Below, piece after piece: positions 2,573 to 63,526 of a stretch of 64,000 nucleotides of DNA. The stretch comes from a virus (Duplodnaviria > Heunggongvirae > Uroviricota > Caudoviricetes): IMG/VR virus record IMGVR_UViG_3300026549_002453. One strand, written 5' to 3'. Made by a program: the position numbers and the translations under genes. How positions within the stretch are numbered: the stretch's first letter is position 1; each line of letters begins with the position of its first letter. The notes beneath the pieces were generated by a model. It did not search any database, was not told the DNA's origin, and saw only the letters and a program-made list of their open reading frames with translations.

Positions 2573-3274
2573 ATGTTTAAGATAAAGCAAACTAAAAATA
2601 CATATGTTACAATAACCAATTATCATCTGAAAGATATTAATCTTTCATTAGAGGCTAAGGGATTACATTCTTGGCTTCTTTCTAATGATGGAAATTGGTC
2701 AGGTAACTTTAATGACATACTAGATTTTCATTACGGTCTTACTCAAACTCAGTTGATAACCATATTAAATGAGTTACAGATAAATGGATATATTGAACTT
2801 AAGGCTGATGATTATGTTGTGTATGATAAACCAATCAATGTAAGTAAGAAAGACTTAAAACCCATTGAACTAAATGATACTGCAAATGACACAAAGAGAA
2901 AGCCAAATTTGTTTAATAAATGTTTAGACTTTATTAATGAATATACGGATGATGAGCACCTACGAAAAGCTCTTACTGATTATTTGTCACTAAGGTTAAA
3001 TCCAGGCCAAGACTCAAGATTAATGCAGTATAAATTACAGTATTTTAATCAATGGCGAAATCTTTTATTGACTCTTGACACCATGACAGGTGACAAAGTA
3101 AAGATAGTAGAACAAAGTTATACAAAACAATGGGGTAAGTTCGTAGATATTACACCTAGTAAAACACTAGATAATGTAAAGAGTGGTTCTTATACAAAAG
3201 AAGAAATGGAATCATTTAGAAAGAAATTAGAAGAAGCAAACAAGAAAACTGTAATAGATGAAATACCATGGTAG
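2573..3274 (+). CDS. putative replication initiator (N-terminal wHTH, DnaD-like C-terminal region)
   Basis: N-terminus YVTITNYHLKDINLSLEAKGLHSWLLS is typical of phage replisome-organiser HTH proteins; directly upstream of the DnaC-like and DnaB genes. Confidence 0.65.
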   Translation: MFKIKQTKNTYVTITNYHLKDINLSLEAKGLHSWLLSNDGNWSGNFNDILDFHYGLTQTQLITILNELQINGYIELKADDYVVYDKPINVSKKDLKPIELNDTANDTKRKPNLFNKCLDFINEYTDDEHLRKALTDYLSLRLNPGQDSRLMQYKLQYFNQWRNLLLTLDTMTGDKVKIVEQSYTKQWGKFVDITPSKTLDNVKSGSYTKEEMESFRKKLEEANKKTVIDEIPW

Positions 3275-18356: not shown

Positions 18357-18806
18357 ATGAATAAAGTTAAGAAGTTATTTATAGTTGGTTTGTTAGTTTT
18401 TCTATTAACAGGATGCAGCTATGGTACTCTTGATACTATATATTCTGGTAGTACGGAGTTTACAGAATTTGACAATTGGCTGATGGAAGAAGTTGGTATT
18501 AAGGCTACTCCTGCTCATATAATAGTAAAAGATACAATAACTAACTATACAGACGAAACAGTTAGTTATACAGAATTGGAAAAGTTATTTAAGAACGATA
18601 AGATAAATGTAGAACTTTGGCAAGAAAAACTATCTAACGATAAGTATGTCAAAGATTACGATTTAATTATAGTTAAAACAACAGATTGTAGTGCTTGTGA
18701 ATATCAAGAAGAGCACTACGAAAAAACTATACTTGCAAACTATAAGAATAAAAACATACTGATATATTGGATTAAAACTGAAGATTGTTTAGGTGGTTGT
18801 GATTAA
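18357..18806 (+). CDS. lipoprotein with CxxC (thioredoxin-like?) motif
   Basis: Lipobox LLTGC; DCSAC. Confidence 0.55.
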   Translation: MNKVKKLFIVGLLVFLLTGCSYGTLDTIYSGSTEFTEFDNWLMEEVGIKATPAHIIVKDTITNYTDETVSYTELEKLFKNDKINVELWQEKLSNDKYVKDYDLIIVKTTDCSACEYQEEHYEKTILANYKNKNILIYWIKTEDCLGGCD

Positions 18807-18807
18807 T

Positions 18808-19362
18808 ATGATATATTTTACGTCAGACCTTCATTTTTCACATAATAAAGAGTTTTTATATGGTCCTCGTGGCTTTAGCTCTGAAGATGAGATGAATGAA
18901 GCAATAATTGAAAATTGGAATAATATAGTAACTCCCGAAGATGATGTATATATTCTTGGGGATTTAACGTTATCTAATAACGATGAAGGCTTAAAGTGTA
19001 TTAAACAACTAAAAGGAAAATTGCATATTATAAGAGGAAACCACGATAGTGACAATAGAATAGAACTATACAGAAATTGTTGGAATGTAGTTGAAATATC
19101 TGAGGGGAAGTTTTTTAGATATGGTAAATATCATTTCTATCTTTCGCATTATCCATGCCTCACTTCAAACTTAGATATGGATAAACCTCTTCATGTAAGA
19201 ATGATAAATCTTTGTGGACATACGCATACACAGGATAAATTCGCAGATTTTGATAAAGGACTTATCTATCACGTAGAATTAGATGCTCATGAGTGTAAGC
19301 CTGTAAATATAGAACAAATTATTGAAGATGTGAAAGAAGAGTGCGAAAGGAGAGTAATATGA
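18808..19362 (+). CDS. calcineurin-like metallophosphoesterase
   Basis: TSDLHF, LGDL, RGNHD, LSHYP, CGHTH. Confidence 0.9.
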   Translation: MIYFTSDLHFSHNKEFLYGPRGFSSEDEMNEAIIENWNNIVTPEDDVYILGDLTLSNNDEGLKCIKQLKGKLHIIRGNHDSDNRIELYRNCWNVVEISEGKFFRYGKYHFYLSHYPCLTSNLDMDKPLHVRMINLCGHTHTQDKFADFDKGLIYHVELDAHECKPVNIEQIIEDVKEECERRVI

Positions 19363-21779: not shown

Positions 21780-22136
21780 ATGAAAAAAGTTTTAGTAATT
21801 ATTAGTGCTTTGGTATTAACATTATCGATGACAGCTTGTACAAATACTATTGAAAAGCAAACTAATACAGTAACTAATCAGGAGAGTGTAACTACATTAC
21901 CTGCAGAGAAACCAATAGTTACAAGTGAACAATTAACAGAAGATACGATTAAATCTATAGTATATGAGCATGCTCAAGTAAAGCCAGAAGAAGTTAATCA
22001 CATTATTATAGAAAAAGATTTTGATGATGGTAGAGAAGAAATAGAAGTAGATTTCTGGGTAGGTAAGACTGAATATTCTTATACATTAGATTTGGGTGGA
22101 AATATTTTAGAATTTGAAGTAGAGAGAAATGATTGA
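21780..22136 (+). CDS. lipoprotein with PepSY-like domain
   Basis: Lipobox SMTAC; EIEVDFWVGKTEYSYTLDLGGNILE resembles PepSY. Confidence 0.65.
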   Translation: MKKVLVIISALVLTLSMTACTNTIEKQTNTVTNQESVTTLPAEKPIVTSEQLTEDTIKSIVYEHAQVKPEEVNHIIIEKDFDDGREEIEVDFWVGKTEYSYTLDLGGNILEFEVERND

Positions 22137-22902
22137 TAAAAAGTCTAAAATTTATATAACAGGAGATATGCACGGAGAAATTGGCATATCCAAGTTTAAT
22201 TCCGACAATTTTCCAGAAGGTAAAACTTTAACCAAAGACGACTATGTAATTGTTCTTGGTGATTTTGGTTTAGTATGGAATTATAAAGAAACAGGCTGTT
22301 CTGTACCCTCTAATCCTAATGATAAATGTTGGACAAGAGAAGAATACTATTGGCTTAAATGGTTAAATAATAAACCTTGGACAACGTTATTTATTGACGG
22401 AAATCATGAAAATTTCAATAGACTAAAGACCTACCCTATTACTGAATGGAATGGCGGGAAGGTACAAAAAATATCTGACTCAGTTATTCACCTTCTGCGA
22501 GGTGAAGTCTATACGATAAATGACACTAAGATATTTACATTTGGTGGAGCAAAGAGTATAGATAGGGGAACAGTTACAGGAACAGAGGAAAAAGATATAA
22601 ATAAGATTTGGTGGAAAGAGGAGCTACCTTCACAAGAAGAACTTGATAATGCTATATCTAATTTAGAAAAGCATCATTTTAATGTAGATTATATATTAAC
22701 TCACGCATTACCTAATAATTTACATATGAGATTAGGTTATTCTGATTTTGATACTCTTACTTCTTTTTTATGGAATGTGCATGACATGACTAAGTTTAAA
22801 GGTTGGTACTGTGGGCATTATCATAGAGATGAGCAGATAAGTTATGCCACAACAGTTTTGTTTAATAAAATAATACCTTTAGGTGATATCGTAGAAGGAT
22901 GA
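22129..22902 (+). CDS. calcineurin-like metallophosphoesterase
   Basis: TGDMHG, LGDFG, DGNHE, LTHA, CGHYH. Confidence 0.9.
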   Translation: MIDKKSKIYITGDMHGEIGISKFNSDNFPEGKTLTKDDYVIVLGDFGLVWNYKETGCSVPSNPNDKCWTREEYYWLKWLNNKPWTTLFIDGNHENFNRLKTYPITEWNGGKVQKISDSVIHLLRGEVYTINDTKIFTFGGAKSIDRGTVTGTEEKDINKIWWKEELPSQEELDNAISNLEKHHFNVDYILTHALPNNLHMRLGYSDFDTLTSFLWNVHDMTKFKGWYCGHYHRDEQISYATTVLFNKIIPLGDIVEG

Positions 22903-33909: not shown

Positions 33910-34150
33910 ATGGATAAACGATATGATTACCAAGGAAAAGATTGACAAGCTACGAGAAAAGATTAAACCAGAAGTGGAAAAACTTATGATAGAGGAATTT
34001 CCTTTTGCGGTTGATGAAAATGGAAACTATCATCCCTTTATGGGTTCTTGTCATTCATTTTGGACATATGAGAAACAAATTCTAAAAGAAAGGTATAATA
34101 TTGACTGGAAAACTCCTGCAGAGGAGCACCCAGAAATACGATATGATTGA
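33902..34150 (+). CDS. hypothetical protein
   Basis: MGSCHSFW...W motif; couples to both neighbours. Confidence 0.6.
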   Translation: MIKWINDMITKEKIDKLREKIKPEVEKLMIEEFPFAVDENGNYHPFMGSCHSFWTYEKQILKERYNIDWKTPAEEHPEIRYD

Positions 34151-34922
34151 TATGAAAGATTATAGTACAATACAAAAAGATATAAAGTCTAACTGGACAA
34201 AGAAAGATGAAAAGAGAAGACAAGCAGTGGCACATCATTATAAGATGATGATTAACGAAGAAGAAGCTATAAAACTATCAGTTAGAGATAGTGATATACA
34301 TGGAGCTAACTTTTCTTTTCCTATAGATAAAGGAAATCCAGAGCATATATTTGTAAATACAGACACAGTTAGTGCTATTAAGCAGTTTAATACTGTTGAT
34401 ATGTGTGCTCTTAATTTTGCTTCATATAAGCATCCTGGTGGTGGTTTTCTTAATGGCAGTATGGCTCAAGAAGAAGCTCTCTGCCACGAAAGTACACTAT
34501 ATGAAGTATTATCTAATGAAAAATTTAATAAATACTATGAATGGAATAAGAAGCATTTAAATAATAGTTTATATCTTAATAGAGCAATATATAGTGAAAA
34601 TATAAAGTTTGATGATGTTTATTGTGATGTTCTTACGTGTGCTAGCCCTAATTGGGGTAGTGCTATGAAATATCACAATGTAAGTAAAGAAGAAAATAGT
34701 AAAGCATTAAGAGAAAGGTGTCAATACATAGCAGAAATTCTTAATTATCATAGCATTGATACTTTTATTACAGGAGCTTTTGGGTGCGGCATTTTCGGGC
34801 AGGACCCAGAAGAAGTTGCTAACATATGGAAAGATATAAATTGGGGAAATGTAGAAAAAGTAATATATGCCGTTCCTGGTGATAATGATAACGCTAAAGT
34901 ATTTAGGAGAATATTTGGATGA
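34143..34922 (+). CDS. macro-domain protein (TIGR02452-like, ADP-ribose-related)
   Basis: LNFASYKHPGGGFLNGSMAQEEALC, LTCASPN, GAFGCGIFGQDP. Confidence 0.85.
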   Translation: MIDMKDYSTIQKDIKSNWTKKDEKRRQAVAHHYKMMINEEEAIKLSVRDSDIHGANFSFPIDKGNPEHIFVNTDTVSAIKQFNTVDMCALNFASYKHPGGGFLNGSMAQEEALCHESTLYEVLSNEKFNKYYEWNKKHLNNSLYLNRAIYSENIKFDDVYCDVLTCASPNWGSAMKYHNVSKEENSKALRERCQYIAEILNYHSIDTFITGAFGCGIFGQDPEEVANIWKDINWGNVEKVIYAVPGDNDNAKVFRRIFG

Positions 34923-35530
34923 GAATACTCTTATTATCTGATACTCATTATCAATACACTTGGAAACATGTAGATGATATTTTTAAGACTAAATTTGATT
35001 ACTGTGTTTGTTTAGGTGATGTTGAAAATTTAATGATAAATTACTTGGCGGAGAAGTGTAAAGAACAAAATATTCCTATATATGTATTAGACGGCAATCA
35101 TGATAACTATATAAATTTGGAAAATGAATATGTAAACTTAATACACATGAAGTCTTTTAGATTAGGAGATTACAATTGCTTTGGTTTTGGAGGTTCATAC
35201 GCTTATAAACCTAAGAATAACTCAGAGATGCTATGGACTCAAGAAGATTCTATACAATTACTAAATAATATTGATAATGTTGACATATTGTTTACGCATG
35301 ATTCTATTAGTATTAATAAACTGAAATTCACTAATAGAAAACTAAGGAATATGTTGCTAAATACTTTTCTTAGTGCATATAATCATCCAGGTTTGATAGG
35401 AATAACTAATCTTGTCAAAAAATGTAATCCTAAATATCATTTTCATGGACATCATCACTGTAATCTTATATATAAGTATAAGAATACACAATGTCAATGT
35501 ATATACGGATTTAAAATAGTTGAAATTTAA
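34919..35530 (+). CDS. calcineurin-like metallophosphoesterase
   Basis: LSDTH, LGDV, DGNHD, FTHDS, FHGHHH. Confidence 0.9.
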   Translation: MRILLLSDTHYQYTWKHVDDIFKTKFDYCVCLGDVENLMINYLAEKCKEQNIPIYVLDGNHDNYINLENEYVNLIHMKSFRLGDYNCFGFGGSYAYKPKNNSEMLWTQEDSIQLLNNIDNVDILFTHDSISINKLKFTNRKLRNMLLNTFLSAYNHPGLIGITNLVKKCNPKYHFHGHHHCNLIYKYKNTQCQCIYGFKIVEI

Positions 35531-38039: not shown

Positions 38040-39440
38040 TTATAGAGTTTGCCAAGAAAAGGGGTAAGTCGTTAGCTTAGCACATGAATTGGCTTTTAAT
38101 TAATATTTAATTATAAATATCCTAAAAGAAAGGAGGTTAAAATGTTAGTACAAAGAACAGAGCAACACATTATAGATAGACAATCTAAGTGGTACAAAAC
38201 GCTTGAAGAATTATGTCATAAAGCTAAAAACACGTACAACCAAGGTAATTATCTTATTCGGCAGGAGTTTATTAAAACTGGCAAGTGGTTGAGATATAAT
38301 GAAGTTGATAAATTAATTAAGTATAGTGACGACAATGAAAACTATTATTCTTGGATTGCTAATGCAAATCAACAAGTGCTTCGCAGATTAGACTCAACTT
38401 GGAAATCATTTTTCAATAGTATTAAAGATTGGAAAAAGAATCCCACTAAGTATAACGGTATGCCCAAGTTACCTAAGTACTTAAAGAAAGATGGATTAAC
38501 CGAGTTTGGGTTAACTACTGTACAATGTAAATTGAAGAATGATAATTTAATACATTTTCATCAAGCAATGAAAGGGTTTACTATTCAACCACAGTTTATC
38601 TATGATGATAGACTCGTGCAGTTTAAGCATTGCAGAATAGTACCTAAAAACGATAGAATTATTGTTGAATTGGTTTACACTATTAATATTCCTGATTTTG
38701 TTAAAGAAACGGGTCCTATTGGAAGTATAGATTTAGGTTTAGATAACTTCGTAACTTTTGTTGATAATCTTGGAAATCACCCAATTATCATCAACGGTAA
38801 AGGTCTAAAATCATGTAATCAATATTACAATAAGCTTATTGCAAAAACAAAGTCAGAGTTGGATAGAAACGGTAATTCAAATAAGTATTCACACTTGTTA
38901 TATTCAATAACAAATAAGCGAAACGATAAAATTAAGCATTTTATGGACAAAGCGAGCAAATACATAGTTGAAAACTGTGTCGATTTAGGAATAAAAAATA
39001 TTGTAGTCGGTAAAAATGATAATCAAAAACAATATAACAAACTCAAAAACTTTGTTCAAGTTCCATATAATCTGTTTATTCAAAAGTTAGCTTATAAATG
39101 TCAAGAAGTTGGAATTGACTTGATTCTTACTGAAGAAAGCTACACTAGTGGGACAAGTTTTATAGATGATGAATTACCAATCAAAGAAAATTATAATATT
39201 GATAGACGGATAAAAAGAGGATTATTCAAATCAAATAATGGTAAGTTGATAAATGCAGATGTAAATGCGGCTTATCAGATAATGAAAAAGGTATTCTCCG
39301 ATGCTGTGAAGCCAGGAGATATAGGGTTAGTAATGAACCCAGTTCGGGTAAATCTTAGTTTCTAAGGTTGATAGAACAAAAAAAGACTGAAAGTGTTAAC
39401 AAAGATATAATTTGTATATATTTTTAACACTTGTTAACAG
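38040..39440 (+). mobile_element. non-autonomous IS200/IS605-type (IS1341-like) element; ends approximate
   Basis: tnpB without tnpA; subterminal palindrome AAGTGTTAA 39391-99 / TTAACACTT 39424-32. Confidence 0.6.
38142..39365 (+). CDS. tnpB: TnpB RNA-guided endonuclease (IS200/IS605 OrfB)
   Basis: N-terminal HTH, RuvC-I IDLGLDN, RuvC-II EESYTS, RuvC-III INADVNAAYQI; no CxxC zinc finger. Confidence 0.92.
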   Translation: MLVQRTEQHIIDRQSKWYKTLEELCHKAKNTYNQGNYLIRQEFIKTGKWLRYNEVDKLIKYSDDNENYYSWIANANQQVLRRLDSTWKSFFNSIKDWKKNPTKYNGMPKLPKYLKKDGLTEFGLTTVQCKLKNDNLIHFHQAMKGFTIQPQFIYDDRLVQFKHCRIVPKNDRIIVELVYTINIPDFVKETGPIGSIDLGLDNFVTFVDNLGNHPIIINGKGLKSCNQYYNKLIAKTKSELDRNGNSNKYSHLLYSITNKRNDKIKHFMDKASKYIVENCVDLGIKNIVVGKNDNQKQYNKLKNFVQVPYNLFIQKLAYKCQEVGIDLILTEESYTSGTSFIDDELPIKENYNIDRRIKRGLFKSNNGKLINADVNAAYQIMKKVFSDAVKPGDIGLVMNPVRVNLSF

Positions 39441-50062: not shown

Positions 50063-50214
50063 GAAGAACGTAGCTCATTGGTAGAGCGCAGCGGGGTTTC
50101 CGTGGGTTATTCAAGGGATAGGCTCCTACTCAAATTCGGAAAGTGAGATGTTATGAATGAAATAACGCCCTATGGCTGGTCAGTAGCAGGTTCGAATCCT
50201 ATCGTTCTTCACCA
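50063..50214 (+). ncRNA. tRNA-like RNA (152 nt) with CCA end and a ~73-nt insert in the anticodon loop
   Basis: GAAGAACG/CGTTCTTC-A-CCA; D arm GCTC-ATTGGTA-GAGC; CAGC/GCTG; T-loop TTCGAAT. Confidence 0.75.
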
Positions 50215-52335: not shown

Positions 52336-53451
52336 GTGAGCAGAGTGAATAGAAACTCTTTGATATGTAAATATATACATAGTAATCCAATTACTTGGAA
52401 GAAAGATTTTGAAAACATAAATATACGAATAAAGGAACAGGACAATCTTTGTCTATTTAAATACGGCCTAGAAGCCGACTTTAACAATCCTTTAGTGCGA
52501 GAATCAAGAGGCATAATTATTGACCTTAATACTCTTGAGGTTGTTTGCATAGGATTTAATAAGTTTTTTAACGCACATGAGTCCTATGCAGATAGTATAA
52601 ATTGGGAGAGCATCAGAGTTGAAAATAAGTTAGATGGTTCAATTGTAAAGCTCTTTTACCACAATGAACAATGGAATTGGTCCACCAACGGAACAATCTT
52701 TGCTAAGGACGCTCCGTGTGAAGACCTTATTCATACCACTTATATAGACCTGATTAAGAGTGCAGTTAACTACAAAGACATAGATTATAATGTGTTAGAT
52801 ACAAGTAATACTTATATATTTGAAATTGTTGACCCTATTATGCACCCAGTAAAATATGATGAGGTAAAGCTTTATCATATTGGTACAAGAAGCAATATTA
52901 CCCTAGAAGAGAGCATTACATATATAGGCATAGAACAACCCGAAAGGTATGGGTTAAATTCTCTCGATGAAATTATTTCTTTTGTAGACCACATGAATGA
53001 GAATAAGGTCACTCAAGAAGGAGTAGTTATAGTAGACAATAATTGGCACAGAGTAAAGATAAAAAATATGAATTATTTGCAAATTCACTATTTAAAGGAC
53101 GCTGTCCTATCAAAATCAAGAGTAATAGAACTCTTGCACAATGATGACATCAATCTAGAAGAACTTACTAAGGATTATCCTCAGTATGAGCAAATATTTA
53201 ACTTTTACAGAAATAAAGAGATAGAATTATACTATGATTTACAAACGTATCTTAACTTTGTGAATCAAACGTATATTAATTTTAAGAGAGATAGAAAGAG
53301 AATTGCAGAGGTAATAAAGGATGATAAATACAAGTTTTTTGCTTTTGAATCCATAACTAGAGGGGATAATGCTCTGCAGTTATTGAAAAAATATAGACTT
53401 AAAAATATAAAAAATTATTGTAAACTGTTACCTGACTATAAAAATAGCTAG
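52336..53451 (+). CDS. T4 Rnl1-like RNA ligase
   Basis: RESRGII, KFFN, motif I KLDGS, IFEIV, EGVVI, RVKIKN..Y. Confidence 0.88.
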   Translation: MSRVNRNSLICKYIHSNPITWKKDFENINIRIKEQDNLCLFKYGLEADFNNPLVRESRGIIIDLNTLEVVCIGFNKFFNAHESYADSINWESIRVENKLDGSIVKLFYHNEQWNWSTNGTIFAKDAPCEDLIHTTYIDLIKSAVNYKDIDYNVLDTSNTYIFEIVDPIMHPVKYDEVKLYHIGTRSNITLEESITYIGIEQPERYGLNSLDEIISFVDHMNENKVTQEGVVIVDNNWHRVKIKNMNYLQIHYLKDAVLSKSRVIELLHNDDINLEELTKDYPQYEQIFNFYRNKEIELYYDLQTYLNFVNQTYINFKRDRKRIAEVIKDDKYKFFAFESITRGDNALQLLKKYRLKNIKNYCKLLPDYKNS

Positions 53452-56590: not shown

Positions 56591-57682
56591 ATGAGAAAAT
56601 TAGCAAGTATACAAATAATTAAAGATATTCGACCAATTCCAGATGCAGATAGAATAGAAGTTGCAACAATATTAGGATGGAAAGTAGTTGTAGAAAAAGG
56701 GAGATATTCTACCGGTCAAAAAGTGGTCTATTTTGAAATAGATAGTTTTTTGCCTTGTGTGGAAGAGTATGAATTTTTAAGAACATCAAGCCATGTAAAT
56801 AGTCCAATATTAGGTGAAGGCTTTAGATTAAAAACTCGTCGCTTAAAAGGAGTTTATAGTCAAGGACTTATCTTACCTATTAAAGTATGTTTTAAGGATT
56901 GTATGCCTTTATCTGAACTTGAAGAAGGTGAGGATGTTACAGAAATACTAAATATCAAAAAGTGGCAAGAACCAGAAAATGCAGTTATAGGTGGAAATCC
57001 TATTGGTAGACGACCTAATTTTATAAAGAAAACACACGAAGAAAGAATACAAAACTTTCCAAAGTTATTAGAAGAATTTTATGCTTGTGAATATGTTTAT
57101 GCTACAACTAAGATTGATGGAAGTTCTCACTCTATAGCGATTGATAGAGATAATAAATTCCGTGCTACTTCTCACAATATGGAATTACGAGATGAGGGAA
57201 GAAAAGGAAGTTTCTATGAATTTTGTAAAGAAAACAATTTGGAAGAAAAATTAAGAGCAGTAAAAGAAAAATACAACGCAAATGAGATAGTAGTACAAGG
57301 TGAGTATTATGGACCAGGAATTCAAAAAAATAAACTCGGTATGAAAAAACCTGCTTGGAGAATATTTACAGTAGATATAAACGGAGAAAGACAGGATTTA
57401 GATACAAGTAAAAATATAGCAGAAAAACTTTTTAATAAAGATAATTATTATGTTATTGCATTCGTTCCTATTGTTTGGTATGGCACGGGAGAAGAATTTA
57501 AGAAAGAGTTTCCTAATACAGAAACACTATTAAAAGCAGTAGAGGGGGATAGAGCAGAAGTATATACAAATCATCAAAATGAGGGGTGGGTTATTAGACC
57601 AACAGTTCCAAGATACTCATATACTATTCAAGGTGATTTGAGCATGAAGGTCATAAATAACAAGTATCTTCTAAAAGAGTAG
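56591..57682 (+). CDS. RNA ligase, DRB0094 family (N-terminal OB fold)
   Basis: MRKLASIQ...IPDADRIE, YFEIDS, TKIDGSS, VQGEYYGPGIQKN, EGWVIR, KVINNKYLLKE. Confidence 0.9.
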   Translation: MRKLASIQIIKDIRPIPDADRIEVATILGWKVVVEKGRYSTGQKVVYFEIDSFLPCVEEYEFLRTSSHVNSPILGEGFRLKTRRLKGVYSQGLILPIKVCFKDCMPLSELEEGEDVTEILNIKKWQEPENAVIGGNPIGRRPNFIKKTHEERIQNFPKLLEEFYACEYVYATTKIDGSSHSIAIDRDNKFRATSHNMELRDEGRKGSFYEFCKENNLEEKLRAVKEKYNANEIVVQGEYYGPGIQKNKLGMKKPAWRIFTVDINGERQDLDTSKNIAEKLFNKDNYYVIAFVPIVWYGTGEEFKKEFPNTETLLKAVEGDRAEVYTNHQNEGWVIRPTVPRYSYTIQGDLSMKVINNKYLLKE

Positions 57683-62722: not shown

Positions 62723-63526
62723 ATGATATATGTTTGTAGCGATATACACGGTCAATATCGATTATATAAAGAGATGTTGGAAAAAATAAATTTTTCTGAT
62801 AATGACACCCTCTATATCCTTGGAGATATGATAGATAGAGGACCAGAGTCGGATAAATTAATGTTAGACATTATAAATAGACCTAGTATTATTTGTTGTG
62901 TTGGTAATCATGAAGTAATGATGTATAGTCACGAAATAGGTGACTATAAAAATAATTTTTGGTGCAATCCCTCTAATGGTGGAATAGAAACACTAACTCA
63001 ATTTGAAAAATTGACTGAAGAAGATCAAGAAAAAATAAAAGATTATATATTTAATAAAACATATTTACAAATAGAAATAGAGGTTAACAATAAAAAATAT
63101 CTTCTTTCTCATTCTGGATTTGTAGAAGGACAAGGTACAATAAAAGATTGGAAAGAATTATATAAGAGAAATAGTTCATTTTGGTATAGTGATGTCTTCG
63201 ATGTAGTGTGGAGGAGCCCTTGGAGATTTAATGAGTATAGAAGTAAAGAAAGCTACAATGACGGTAGAATACATATTATAGGACACGTTCCCGTACAAAC
63301 GGTTAGGTATAATGAAGACTACCAAAAAGAAAAATGTATAAGAGGACAAGAGTTAGATATAGAAGAAATAGAAGAACTATGCGATAAATTAGAGATTTGG
63401 CAAAATAACAATATTATAAATATTGACGGTGGGTGTTCATTTAAAAGCAAAAGAGAGGTAATATTTAAAAATACTGGTTTGTTGTGTATAAATTTAACAA
63501 CTGTAGATGTTGTAGGTATTAAGTAG
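62723..63526 (+). CDS. Ser/Thr phosphatase-like (PPP-type) metallophosphoesterase
   Basis: SDIHG, GDMIDRGPES, VGNHE, SHSG, IGHVP, NIDGGC. Confidence 0.9.
   Translation: MIYVCSDIHGQYRLYKEMLEKINFSDNDTLYILGDMIDRGPESDKLMLDIINRPSIICCVGNHEVMMYSHEIGDYKNNFWCNPSNGGIETLTQFEKLTEEDQEKIKDYIFNKTYLQIEIEVNNKKYLLSHSGFVEGQGTIKDWKELYKRNSSFWYSDVFDVVWRSPWRFNEYRSKESYNDGRIHIIGHVPVQTVRYNEDYQKEKCIRGQELDIEEIEELCDKLEIWQNNNIINIDGGCSFKSKREVIFKNTGLLCINLTTVDVVGIK

What the first reader, a model, noticed from the sequence alone, without database searches (positions are those of the whole stretch)
50063..50214. Second tRNA-like RNA: CCA-ended, 8-bp acceptor stem, ~73-nt insert in the anticodon loop
Seen: canonical D arm (GCTC-ATTGGTA-GAGC), CAGC/GCTG anticodon-stem base, TTCGAAT T-loop and encoded A-CCA. 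The acceptor stem reads 8 bp (GAAGAACG/CGTTCTTC), and 82 nt lie where about 9 are expected. The insert can pair GTTATT/AATAAC, TTCA/TGAA and CTCA/TGAG. Near its base, GGGG/CCCT with a 3-nt ATG bulge looks loosely like a bulge-helix-bulge splice site, but simple BHB cutting does not restore a canonical 5-bp/7-nt anticodon arm. Inference: either an intron-containing tRNA matured by a phage nuclease and ligase (two RNA ligases are encoded 2-7 kb away), or an aminoacylatable, non-decoding tRNA mimic. It shares no obvious sequence with the 49.0-kb RNA, which suggests the design arose twice.
Basis: partly seen in the sequence, partly recalled or inferred. Interest (0 to 1): 0.8.

Follow-up and report, generated by a model that had tools for sequence, protein, structure and literature searches.

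The report
Conserved non-decoding tRNA-shaped phage RNA
This is a real, conserved phage gene for a roughly 150-base RNA with the upper half of a tRNA and a folded three-armed domain where the anticodon arm should be, so it almost certainly cannot read codons; what it does is unknown.

Summary
Window 50063-50214 has a canonical D arm, T arm, an 8-bp acceptor stem and A-CCA. Between CAGC and GCTG lie 82 nt instead of an anticodon loop.

The element is not a one-off. The same RNA, insert included, occurs on four other distinct contigs from uncultured, mostly jumbo phages (five further fetched copies, two of them duplicates). These phages share almost no proteins with this one, yet the RNA is 89-90% identical. 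Ten base pairs show compensatory changes, in the acceptor stem and in one insert hairpin.

The insert folds as a three-way junction with a probable loop-loop contact. It matches no Rfam family. No excision restores a normal 5-bp/7-nt anticodon arm on the canonical frame. ARAGORN's intron mode gives a forced tRNA-Gly(UCC) model only by breaking the D stem.

My best reading is a non-decoding, tRNA-scaffolded RNA whose conserved insert is the working part, probably tied to tRNA damage and repair. The intron reading is weak, and charging was not tested.

This scan noted the same RNA in another genome, and similar tRNA scaffolds in many phages. The closest published analogues are T4 species 1 RNA and YrlA.

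The parts
50063..50070 (+). 5' strand of the acceptor stem. G50063 is the 8th pair (position -1) and AAGAACG is positions 1-7.
   Evidence: Pairs with 50203-50210. All 8 pairs are kept in 5 homologues, and 7 pairs of the closing stem (acceptor plus flank extension) show changes on both sides.
50073..50087 (+). Canonical D arm: GCTC stem, ATTGGTA loop with GG, GAGC stem.
   Evidence: Rfam tRNA alignment. The stem is invariant in all 5 copies.
50089..50092 (+). 5' strand (CAGC) of the 4-bp remnant of the anticodon stem.
   Evidence: Pairs with GCTG at 50175-50178. Invariant.
50093..50097 (+). 5' strand of insert helix P1 (GGGGT).
   Evidence: Pairs with GCCCT at 50167-50171. Found by RNAalifold.
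50098..50141 (+). Insert helix A, a bent arm. It consists of TTCCG/CGGAA, a 4-nt bulge AATT, TGGGT/ACTCA, a 7-nt internal loop TATTCAA, and GGGA/TCCT capped by the loop TAGGC.
   Evidence: RNAalifold consensus. It equals the minimum-energy fold in four homologues. It is nearly invariant, with only G-C to G-U type changes.
50142..50149 (+). Conserved single-stranded junction AGTGAGAT between helix A and hairpin B.
   Evidence: One variable position (Y) in 5 copies.
50150..50166 (+). Insert hairpin B: a 5-bp stem (GTTAT/ATAAC) with a 7-nt loop GAATGAA. The loop can pair with ATTC of the helix A internal loop (50109-50112).
   Evidence: 3 of 5 stem pairs change on both sides. The loop-loop pairing is kept in 4 of 5 copies, with one mismatch in L008 (helix 7).
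50167..50174 (+). 3' strand of P1 (GCCCT) followed by the conserved 3-nt bulge ATG.
   Evidence: Invariant except for R at the first position.
50175..50185 (+). 3' strand of the anticodon-stem remnant (GCTG) and a 7-nt variable loop GTCAGTA.
   Evidence: Invariant apart from one Y.
50186..50202 (+). T arm: GCAGG, loop TTCGAAT, CCTAT. The window copy has a C.A mismatch that the homologues lack.
50203..50214 (+). 3' strand of the 8-bp acceptor stem (CGTTCTTC), unpaired A, and the encoded CCA.
   Evidence: The three ordinary tRNAs of the window also end N73-CCA-TA. The CCA is not conserved in the homologues.

Best explanation
This is a gene for a roughly 150-nt non-decoding RNA built on a tRNA frame.

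Shown:
- The acceptor stem (8 bp), D arm and T arm are canonical, so the RNA should form the tRNA elbow.
- The anticodon loop is absent. A 4-bp stem remnant leads, past a 3-nt bulge, into a conserved 82-nt three-way junction made of P1, a bent helix A and hairpin B.
- The whole unit is conserved, with compensatory changes, in very different phages.

Inferred:
- The tRNA frame serves as a handle for processing and stability. It would allow RNase P and 3'-end maturation within the tRNA island, and CCA is encoded here.
- The insert is held compact by a contact between the helix A internal loop and the hairpin B loop, and it is the functional module.
- The insert's stems are conserved in sequence, not only in pairing. 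This suggests it is read by a specific partner (a protein or another RNA).
- That partner most plausibly belongs to the conflict over tRNA damage and repair, in which these phages invest heavily (RNA ligases, RlaP, phosphoesterases, Ro60-like proteins).
- It is not an intron and it does not decode.
For: - tRNA frame: Rfam tRNA model at 30.6 bits with the anticodon arm replaced; canonical D and T arms.
- Family: 5 further fetched copies, 4 of them distinct in sequence, on contigs from IMG/VR, GenBank and ENA assemblies, 89-90% identical over 157 nt.
- Divergent hosts: the window and L001 share only three proteins at 26-45% identity, and the window shares only one with L238. The neighbouring tRNAs are not alike.
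- Structure: RNAalifold gives 47 pairs, 10 of them with changes on both sides. 98.5% of cells are paired against 42-47% when the partners are slid, and 0 of 500 shuffles reach the observed covariation.
- The consensus fold is the minimum-energy fold in L001, L009, L008 and L006 at about -50 kcal/mol.
- Insert more conserved than the acceptor stem: against L006 the insert is 89-95% identical while the acceptor is 19-31% identical and fully compensated.
- The insert matches no Rfam family.
- Context: the element sits in a tRNA island, at 45% GC in a roughly 30% GC background. The phage encodes an Rnl1-like ligase, an Rnl2/PHA02142-like ligase, RlaP and several metallophosphoesterases.
- The three ordinary tRNAs of the window end in the same A-CCA-TA context as this element.
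Against: - There is no expression, end-mapping or binding data.
- Only four distinct sequences are known, and most insert helices are invariant. They are therefore neither supported nor refuted by covariation.
- High identity could partly reflect recent horizontal transfer rather than selection.
- The window copy is the weakest folder: -37.2 kcal/mol for the consensus against a minimum of -39.5, z-score 0.11, with a C.A mismatch in the T stem.
- The closing stem can extend 1-2 pairs beyond 8 bp, which is unlike a normal RNase P substrate.
- No partner has been identified. No Ro60-like gene lies in this 64-kb window.
Confidence: 0.5

Rival explanations
1. It is an intron-containing tRNA. A 64-nt intron (about 50104-50167) is cut out and the ends are sealed by a phage RNA ligase. 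This leaves GGGG-TTTCCGT-CCCT, an anticodon-like 7-nt loop with U33, anticodon UCC (Gly) and G37.
For: - ARAGORN in intron mode returns this model for 4 of 5 copies at the default threshold, and for L008 at a relaxed threshold.
- The TTCCG of that loop pairs with CGGAA inside the putative intron, as anticodon-intron helices do.
- Two RNA ligases are encoded 2-7 kb away.
- Genuine short introns exist in tRNA-Lys and tRNA-Gln of the related contig L009.
Against: - The ARAGORN model breaks the perfect GCTC/GAGC D stem. It ignores the invariant CAGC/GCTG helix, starts the anticodon stem with a C.A pair, and leaves 13 nt unpaired as a variable region.
- On the canonical frame the spliced product would have an 8-bp bulged anticodon arm, which is too long for the ribosome.
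- The body does not resemble tRNA-Gly.
- ARAGORN misplaces the intron in the control tRNA-Gln, calling it Glu, and its call for the second control (Thr rather than Lys) is ambiguous by one nucleotide, so its calls are unreliable.
- There is no bulge-helix-bulge motif, no 12-bp minihelix with an NCCA tail like the L009 introns, and no group I signal.
- No insert-free allele was found.
Confidence: 0.1
2. It is a relic without a function of its own. A tRNA received a nested tRNA-shaped mobile insert and then lost its anticodon loop. The dead unit spreads between phage tRNA islands by recombination, which would explain its high identity.
For: - The insert has the layout of the L009 mini-introns: a stem starting GGGG, a 5' linker, a hairpin with a 7-nt loop abutting the 3' strand of the stem, and a short 3' tail.
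- tRNA islands are highly variable. Close relatives of the L001 ligase have no island at that site.
- A PD-(D/E)XK endonuclease gene flanks the island in the window.
- The conserved block ends within a few bases of the RNA.
Against: - Substitutions are not neutral. Six changes in hairpin B and up to 13 in the acceptor stem are all compensatory, and 98.5% of cells remain paired.
- Loops and junctions are nearly invariant across phages whose proteins are under 45% identical.
- The minimum-energy fold equals the consensus in four copies.
Confidence: 0.15
3. It is a Y-RNA-like cofactor of the phage Ro60-like protein. Like bacterial YrlA, it would use tRNA mimicry to tether or gate an RNA quality-control or repair machine.
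For: - The DUF2828+DUF7788 proteins of L001 and L238 fold like Ro60. Foldseek top hits are Ro60, Rsr and Thermus phage Ro60, at probability 1.0, E about 1e-6 and TM about 0.5.
- Bacterial and phage Y RNAs contain tRNA-like domains and are encoded near Ro60 genes (PMC4201824).
- From memory, the invariant GGCTGGTCAGTAG (50174-50186) matches 11 of 13 bases of the 5' Ro-binding end of vertebrate Y RNAs.
Against: - The Rfam Y_RNA and YrlA models do not match.
- The bacterial motif GNCGAA(N)G is not conserved in the family.
- The RNA ends lie at the acceptor stem, whereas YrlA is closed there.
- Ro60-like genes are very common in large phages, with more than 6500 relatives. This RNA is rare, and it lies 7-17 kb from the Ro60-like gene rather than next to it.
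- No Ro60-like gene is present in this window.
Confidence: 0.12

Closest known systems
Bacteriophage T4 species 1 and species 2 stable RNAs (rnaC, rnaD)
   Same: These are stable RNAs of about 120-140 nt encoded inside a phage tRNA cluster. rnaC ends in an 8-bp stem, a TTCGAAT T arm and an unpaired A. That is the same 8/5 arrangement as here. Their function is unknown.
   Different: There is no specific sequence or model similarity. The model built here scores rnaC at 16 bits, below ordinary T4 tRNAs. rnaC has a 46-nt 5' extension and no canonical D arm. Its middle part is unrelated to the three-way junction.
YrlA / bacterial and phage Y RNAs (Rfam RF02553; Chen et al. 2014, PMC4201824)
   Same: These are non-decoding RNAs with D-arm, T-arm and acceptor mimicry. 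Some are cut by RNase P and receive CCA. They are linked to RNA repair genes and Ro60. Ro60-like proteins are encoded by two of the phages that carry this RNA.
   Different: The topology is the reverse. YrlA has its ends in the Ro-binding stem and a closed acceptor stem. Rfam gives no match. The GNCGAA motif is absent. The gene is not adjacent to the Ro60-like gene.
tRNA-shaped short introns of phage tRNAs (Lak megaphages, Devoto et al. 2019, PMC6784885; also seen here in L009)
   Same: An insert at the anticodon position of a phage tRNA gene, with a closing stem plus an abutting hairpin bearing a 7-nt loop. The insert is highly conserved between genomes.
   Different: In those introns, removal of the insert restores a canonical anticodon loop, and the inserts form a 12-bp minihelix with an ACCA-like tail. 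Here the loop is not restored, the stack is 10 bp, the tail is ATG, and the insert is never seen apart from its frame.
Bacterial tRNA-Sec (8/5 acceptor/T helix)
   Same: It has an 8-bp acceptor stem plus a 5-bp T stem (13 bp) with an unpaired discriminator before CCA. From memory, Baron and Bock (1991) showed that the 8-bp stem of tRNA-Sec blocks EF-Tu binding.
   Different: Here there is no 6-bp D stem, no long variable arm and no UCA anticodon. The Rfam tRNA-Sec model gives no match.
Phage tRNA-Leu-frame scaffold RNAs with variable cargo
   Same: The tRNA top half is kept and the anticodon arm is replaced by a folded insert. They lie in phage tRNA islands and co-occur with this RNA in the window and in L009.
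   Different: They use a different, class II Leu-like frame with a TGCAAAT T loop, and their cargo varies. Here the frame is class I and the cargo is the most conserved part.

Membership tests
Canonical decoding tRNA (Rfam RF00005) | Acceptor stem, D arm and T arm with conserved loop residues | tested here: met
   Rfam alignment at 30.6 bits against a gathering score of 29. D loop with GG and T loop TTCGAAT. The acceptor stem is 8 bp rather than 7.
Canonical decoding tRNA (Rfam RF00005) | 5-bp anticodon stem with a 7-nt loop, U33 and a purine at 37 | tested here: not met
   A 4-bp stem leads into an 82-nt domain. Standard ARAGORN finds nothing.
tRNA with a bulge-helix-bulge (archaeal/eukaryal type) intron | Two 3-nt bulges on opposite strands, separated by a 4-bp helix | tested here: not met
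   Only the 3'-side ATG bulge exists. After GGGG the 5' strand runs directly into helix A.
tRNA with a bulge-helix-bulge (archaeal/eukaryal type) intron | Excision restores a canonical anticodon arm | tested here: not met
   Inspection of every register on the canonical frame, plus ARAGORN intron mode, which succeeds only by abandoning the D stem and the CAGC/GCTG helix.
Group I intron in a bacterial or phage tRNA | Match to the group I core (Rfam RF00028) and a size of about 200 nt or more | tested here: not met
   No match at E up to 10. The insert is 82 nt.
tRNA-shaped mini-intron (Lak type) | Host tRNA is complete once the insert is removed; the insert forms a 12-bp minihelix with an NCCA-like tail | tested here: not met
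   No loop remains after removal. The stack is 5+5 bp and the tail is ATG. The L009 Lys and Gln introns do meet these features.
tRNA-shaped mini-intron (Lak type) | The same tRNA is found with and without the insert | tested here: not met
   A pattern for the same frame with a 5-35-nt loop finds nothing in IMG/VR. This covers IMG/VR only, at exact-match stringency.
tmRNA | tRNA-like domain plus a tag reading frame | tested here: not met
   ARAGORN and Rfam give no tmRNA here. No short frame is conserved between copies.
YrlA / Y RNA | Rfam model match and the GNCGAA(N)G (or GGUCCGA) Ro-binding motif | tested here: not met
   No Rfam match. The motif is absent or not conserved (motif from PMC4201824).
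YrlA / Y RNA | Encoded within a few kb of a Ro60 gene, on the same strand | tested here: inconclusive
   Ro60-like genes lie 6.6 kb away in L001 and 17 kb away in L238. None is in the window, but the window is only part of a genome.
T4 rnaC-like stable RNA | Homology to T4 rnaC | tested here: not met
   The model built here scores rnaC at 16.2 bits, lower than T4's ordinary tRNAs.
tRNA-His-like acceptor (G-1:C73) | G-1 paired with C73, directly followed by CCA; GUG anticodon | tested here: not met
   The G:C eighth pair is present in 4 of 5 copies and is A:U in L006. An unpaired A or G precedes CCA or UCA. There is no GUG loop.
Aminoacylatable tRNA mimic | Charged by an aminoacyl-tRNA synthetase | not testable with these tools
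   This needs an in vitro or in vivo charging assay.

The most novel reading that the evidence does not exclude
The RNA is an active player in the conflict between phage and host over tRNAs. One form of this idea is a Y-RNA-like adaptor: its tRNA frame docks tRNA-handling enzymes, and its conserved three-way junction recruits the phage Ro60-like protein or an RNA ligase. The other form is a charged 8/5 tRNA mimic that EF-Tu ignores and that acts as a decoy or cofactor. Either would be a new class of phage RNA effector built on a tRNA scaffold.
Probability: 0.18. Interest if true: 0.85.

Novelty: new variant of a known kind. Interest (0 to 1): 0.6.

Why it matters
Phage tRNA islands are usually annotated only for decoding tRNAs. 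This element shows that they also hold strongly conserved RNAs that keep the tRNA handle and swap the anticodon arm for a dedicated folded domain.

T4's species 1 and 2 RNAs have been known for fifty years without a known function. A compact, well-defined relative of that idea is a tractable entry point, because it is conserved across very different jumbo phages that also carry RNA ligases, RlaP and Ro60-like proteins.

If the insert binds a repair or defence factor, that would reveal an RNA layer in the contest between phage and host over tRNA. The RNA is also a natural counterpart of the engineered tRNA scaffolds used to express structured RNAs.

Tried and rejected
- Known RNA families. Rfam at gathering and permissive thresholds, on the region and on the insert alone, gave only the tRNA frame. 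There was no ribozyme, riboswitch, group I, Y RNA, tmRNA or tRNA-Sec match.
- Bulge-helix-bulge splicing. Rejected because only one bulge exists and no canonical arm is restored.
- ARAGORN intron mode. It gives tRNA-Gly(UCC) with a 64-nt intron. I kept this only as a weak rival because the model is forced.
- Hammerhead-like core. By eye, the junction strands (0, 8 and 0-1 nt; AGYGAGAU) do not fit the CUGAUGA/GAAA core.
- Short reading frames starting at the conserved ATGs are not conserved between copies.
- Homologues in cultured phages, plasmids and E. coli: none.
- Homologues in species-representative genomes: none with the specific pattern. A looser pattern gave only chance hits.
- More IMG/VR patterns. 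One was mis-specified by one base. The corrected pattern and the junction patterns returned only L001.
- 78 relatives of the L001 ligase were fetched and scanned with the model. The element was absent, and none of the ten closest relatives scanned with ARAGORN has a tRNA island next to the ligase.
- T4 rnaC homology: rejected.
- Ro60-like gene in the window: none.
- The genome search holds neither the window's genome nor L008's record.
- One look-up of encoding contigs found nothing.

Full report
**1. What is in the sequence**

Window 50063-50214 (+) reads as a tRNA with its anticodon loop replaced.
- The acceptor stem is 8 bp. G50063 pairs with C50210, and AAGAACG pairs with CGTTCTT.
- TA follows, then a canonical D arm (GCTC, ATTGGTA, GAGC) and a G.
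- Next comes CAGC, then 82 nt, then GCTG.
- A 7-nt variable loop follows, then a T arm with the loop TTCGAAT, an unpaired A, and CCA.

The Rfam tRNA model matches 50064-50210 at 30.6 bits (gathering score 29), with 91 nt inserted where the anticodon arm should be. Standard ARAGORN and the gathering-mode scan miss it. The stretch is 45% GC in a background of about 30%. It lies in a tRNA island between tRNA-Lys(UUU) and tRNA-Gln(UUG). All three ordinary tRNAs of the window end in N73-CCA-TA, as this element does. That favours reading the stem as 8 bp, followed by A73 and CCA.

**2. It is a conserved family, not a one-off**

Exact-pattern scans found the same RNA, insert included, in the following places.
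- IMG/VR contig L001.
- Metagenome contigs L006, L008 and L009.
- A 284-kb ENA contig, L238, which is the same phage as L008.

L001 and L009 are identical in the aligned core, and L238 repeats L008, so including the window there are five distinct sequences. BLAST identity to the window is 89-90% over about 157 nt, and the similarity stops at the ends of the RNA.

The genomes are otherwise far apart. The window and L001 share three proteins at 26-45% identity, and the window and L238 share one. The neighbouring tRNAs are unrelated in sequence. Nothing similar exists in cultured phages, plasmids or E. coli.

**3. Structure**

RNAalifold on the five sequences gives the cloverleaf frame plus a three-way junction.
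- The 4-bp CAGC/GCUG stem comes first, followed by a 3-nt AUG bulge on the 3' side.
- P1 is GGGGU/RCCCU.
- Helix A is made of UUCCG/CGGAA, a 4-nt bulge, UGGGU/ACYCA, a 7-nt internal loop, and RGGA/UCCU capped by UAGGC.
- An 8-nt junction, AGYGAGAU, follows.
- Hairpin B has 5 bp and the loop RAAUGAA, and it abuts the 3' strand of P1.

This fold is the minimum-energy structure of L001, L009, L008 and L006 at about -50 kcal/mol. The window copy is weaker: -37.2 kcal/mol against a minimum of -39.5, with a C.A mismatch in the T stem.

Of the 52 pairs counted (47 predicted pairs plus the 5 of the proposed loop-loop contact), 98.5% of cells are standard pairs, against 42-47% when the partners are slid. 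Ten pairs change on both sides, and 0 of 500 shuffles reach the observed covariation. The compensatory changes lie in the closing acceptor stem, including the eighth pair, and in hairpin B. The other helices are invariant, so they are neither supported nor refuted.

The internal loop of helix A (YAUUC) is complementary to the hairpin B loop (GAAUG). This contact is kept in four of five copies. I take it as a probable tertiary contact.

It is compatible in every copy, so a conformational switch cannot be excluded.

**4. Frame versus insert**

Against L006 the insert is 89-95% identical, while the acceptor stem is 19-31% identical and fully compensated. The insert's stems are conserved in sequence as well as in pairing. 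This points to recognition by a specific partner, and it makes the insert, not the frame, the likely working part.

**5. Is it an intron?**

- On the canonical frame, no excision leaves a 5-bp stem and a 7-nt loop with U33.
- There is one bulge rather than a bulge-helix-bulge motif.
- There is no group I signal, and 82 nt is too short for one.
- ARAGORN's intron mode proposes tRNA-Gly(UCC) with a 64-nt intron, which uses GGGG/CCCU as the anticodon stem and UUUCCGU as the loop. That model breaks the perfect D stem, ignores CAGC/GCUG, opens with a C.A pair and leaves 13 nt unpaired. The same program also misassigns the control tRNA-Gln intron of L009.
- A search for the same frame with a short loop found nothing in IMG/VR.

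In contrast, L009 holds real short introns in tRNA-Lys and tRNA-Gln. Their removal restores canonical loops, and they form 12-bp minihelices ending in ACCA. This is the type reported as enigmatic introns in Lak megaphages (PMC6784885). The present insert shares their general layout, so it may descend from one. It is no longer removable in any way that yields a tRNA.

**6. Context and likely role**

The window encodes an Rnl1-like ligase, an Rnl2/PHA02142-like ligase, RlaP, four metallophosphoesterases and a PARG-like protein. RlaP is a nucleotidyltransferase implicated in tRNA repair (PMC12776372).

L001 has an RNA ligase directly upstream of its tRNA island. L001 and L238 both encode DUF2828+DUF7788 proteins. 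I modelled the L001 protein and found it to be Ro60-like. Bacterial Ro60 works with Y RNAs that mimic tRNA (PMC4201824).

This makes a role in tRNA damage, repair or quality control the most plausible setting. No direct link was shown: no Y RNA motif or model matches, and no Ro60-like gene lies in the window.

**7. Comparison with known systems**

The nearest published analogues are T4 species 1 and 2 RNAs and YrlA. T4 rnaC also ends in an 8-bp stem, a TTCGAAT T arm and an unpaired A, but it is not homologous. The 8/5 geometry recalls tRNA-Sec. From memory, the 8-bp stem of tRNA-Sec blocks EF-Tu binding, which would fit a non-decoding role here.

Earlier notes of this scan report the same RNA in another genome, and many tRNA-frame scaffolds in other phages. 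I treat these as leads. My own data agree with them.

**8. Verdict**

- The element is real and conserved, and it belongs to no described RNA family.
- It is most likely a non-decoding tRNA-scaffolded RNA (confidence 0.5).
- The intron reading is unlikely (0.1).
- The relic reading is possible (0.15).
- Function and expression remain untested.

Noticed in passing
L009:2292-2411 and L009:3215-3330 (also L001:1-110): There are two phage tRNAs with short introns in the anticodon. The first is a tRNA-Lys(UUU), with Thr(UGU) possible because of a one-base ambiguity, carrying a 47-nt insert. The second is a tRNA-Gln(UUG) carrying a 45-nt insert. Each insert forms a 12-bp minihelix (6+6 or 7+5 bp) with a 7-nt loop and ends in ACCA. 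This is the shape of a minimal RNase P substrate.
   Followed up: partly
L009:1817-1874 (same as L001:528-585): A 58-nt tRNA with acceptor stem, D arm, T arm and encoded ACCA but no anticodon arm at all. It lies 4 nt downstream of the homologue of this element. The Rfam tRNA model scores it at 40.6 bits.
   Followed up: no
window:49041-49292; L009 about 2880-3015 and 3090-3200: A second family of tRNA-frame RNAs. They have a tRNA-Leu-like D arm (GGCGGAATAGGTAGACGC) and a T loop TGCAAAT, with inserts of very different length. This family co-occurs with the present RNA in the window and in L009.
   Followed up: partly
window:36941-37957, 52336-53451, 56591-57682, 18793-19362, 22129-22902, 34919-35530, 62723-63526, 34101-34922: An RNA-repair style gene set: an RlaP nucleotidyltransferase, an Rnl1-like ligase, an Rnl2/PHA02142-like ligase, four metallophosphoesterases and a microbial-type PARG.
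   Followed up: partly
L001:7354-8919 (-) and L238:20360 onward: The DUF2828+DUF7788 proteins are Ro60-like (TROVE ring plus vWA) by predicted fold. Pfam's TROVE model does not match them. More than 6500 relatives exist, mostly on large phage contigs.
   Followed up: yes
L238:20074-20240: Another tRNA-like gene with an insert of about 90 nt, 120 nt upstream of the Ro60-like gene on the same strand. The region carries five copies of an ACAGCAA-containing motif. One copy of the motif also lies just downstream of the Ro60-like gene of L001 (about 7180).
   Followed up: no
L008:6410-7019 and L008:9110-9511: The jumbo phage that carries the homologue also encodes a ROOL RNA (279 bits) next to its tRNAs and its own tmRNA.
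   Followed up: no
window:50838-51242: A PDDEXK_15 phage endonuclease gene lies directly after the tRNA island. It is possibly a homing-type nuclease linked to the island's mobility.
   Followed up: no
window:59961-61479 and 38142-39365: An IscB gene (RRXRR plus HNH) with its HEARO guide RNA (141.8 bits), and a separate TnpB-like gene.
   Followed up: no
window:50174-50186: The invariant GGCTGGTCAGTAG matches, from memory, 11 of 13 bases of the conserved 5' Ro-binding end of vertebrate Y RNAs (GGCUGGUCCGAAG). No Rfam Y RNA match supports this, so it is only a lead.
   Followed up: partly
window:41675-43807 and L238:15361-17751: Sortase-like genes occur both in this window and in the jumbo phage that carries the homologue. 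In L238 they lie next to a Cna_B/SpaA pilin-like gene. This hints at Gram-positive hosts.
   Followed up: no
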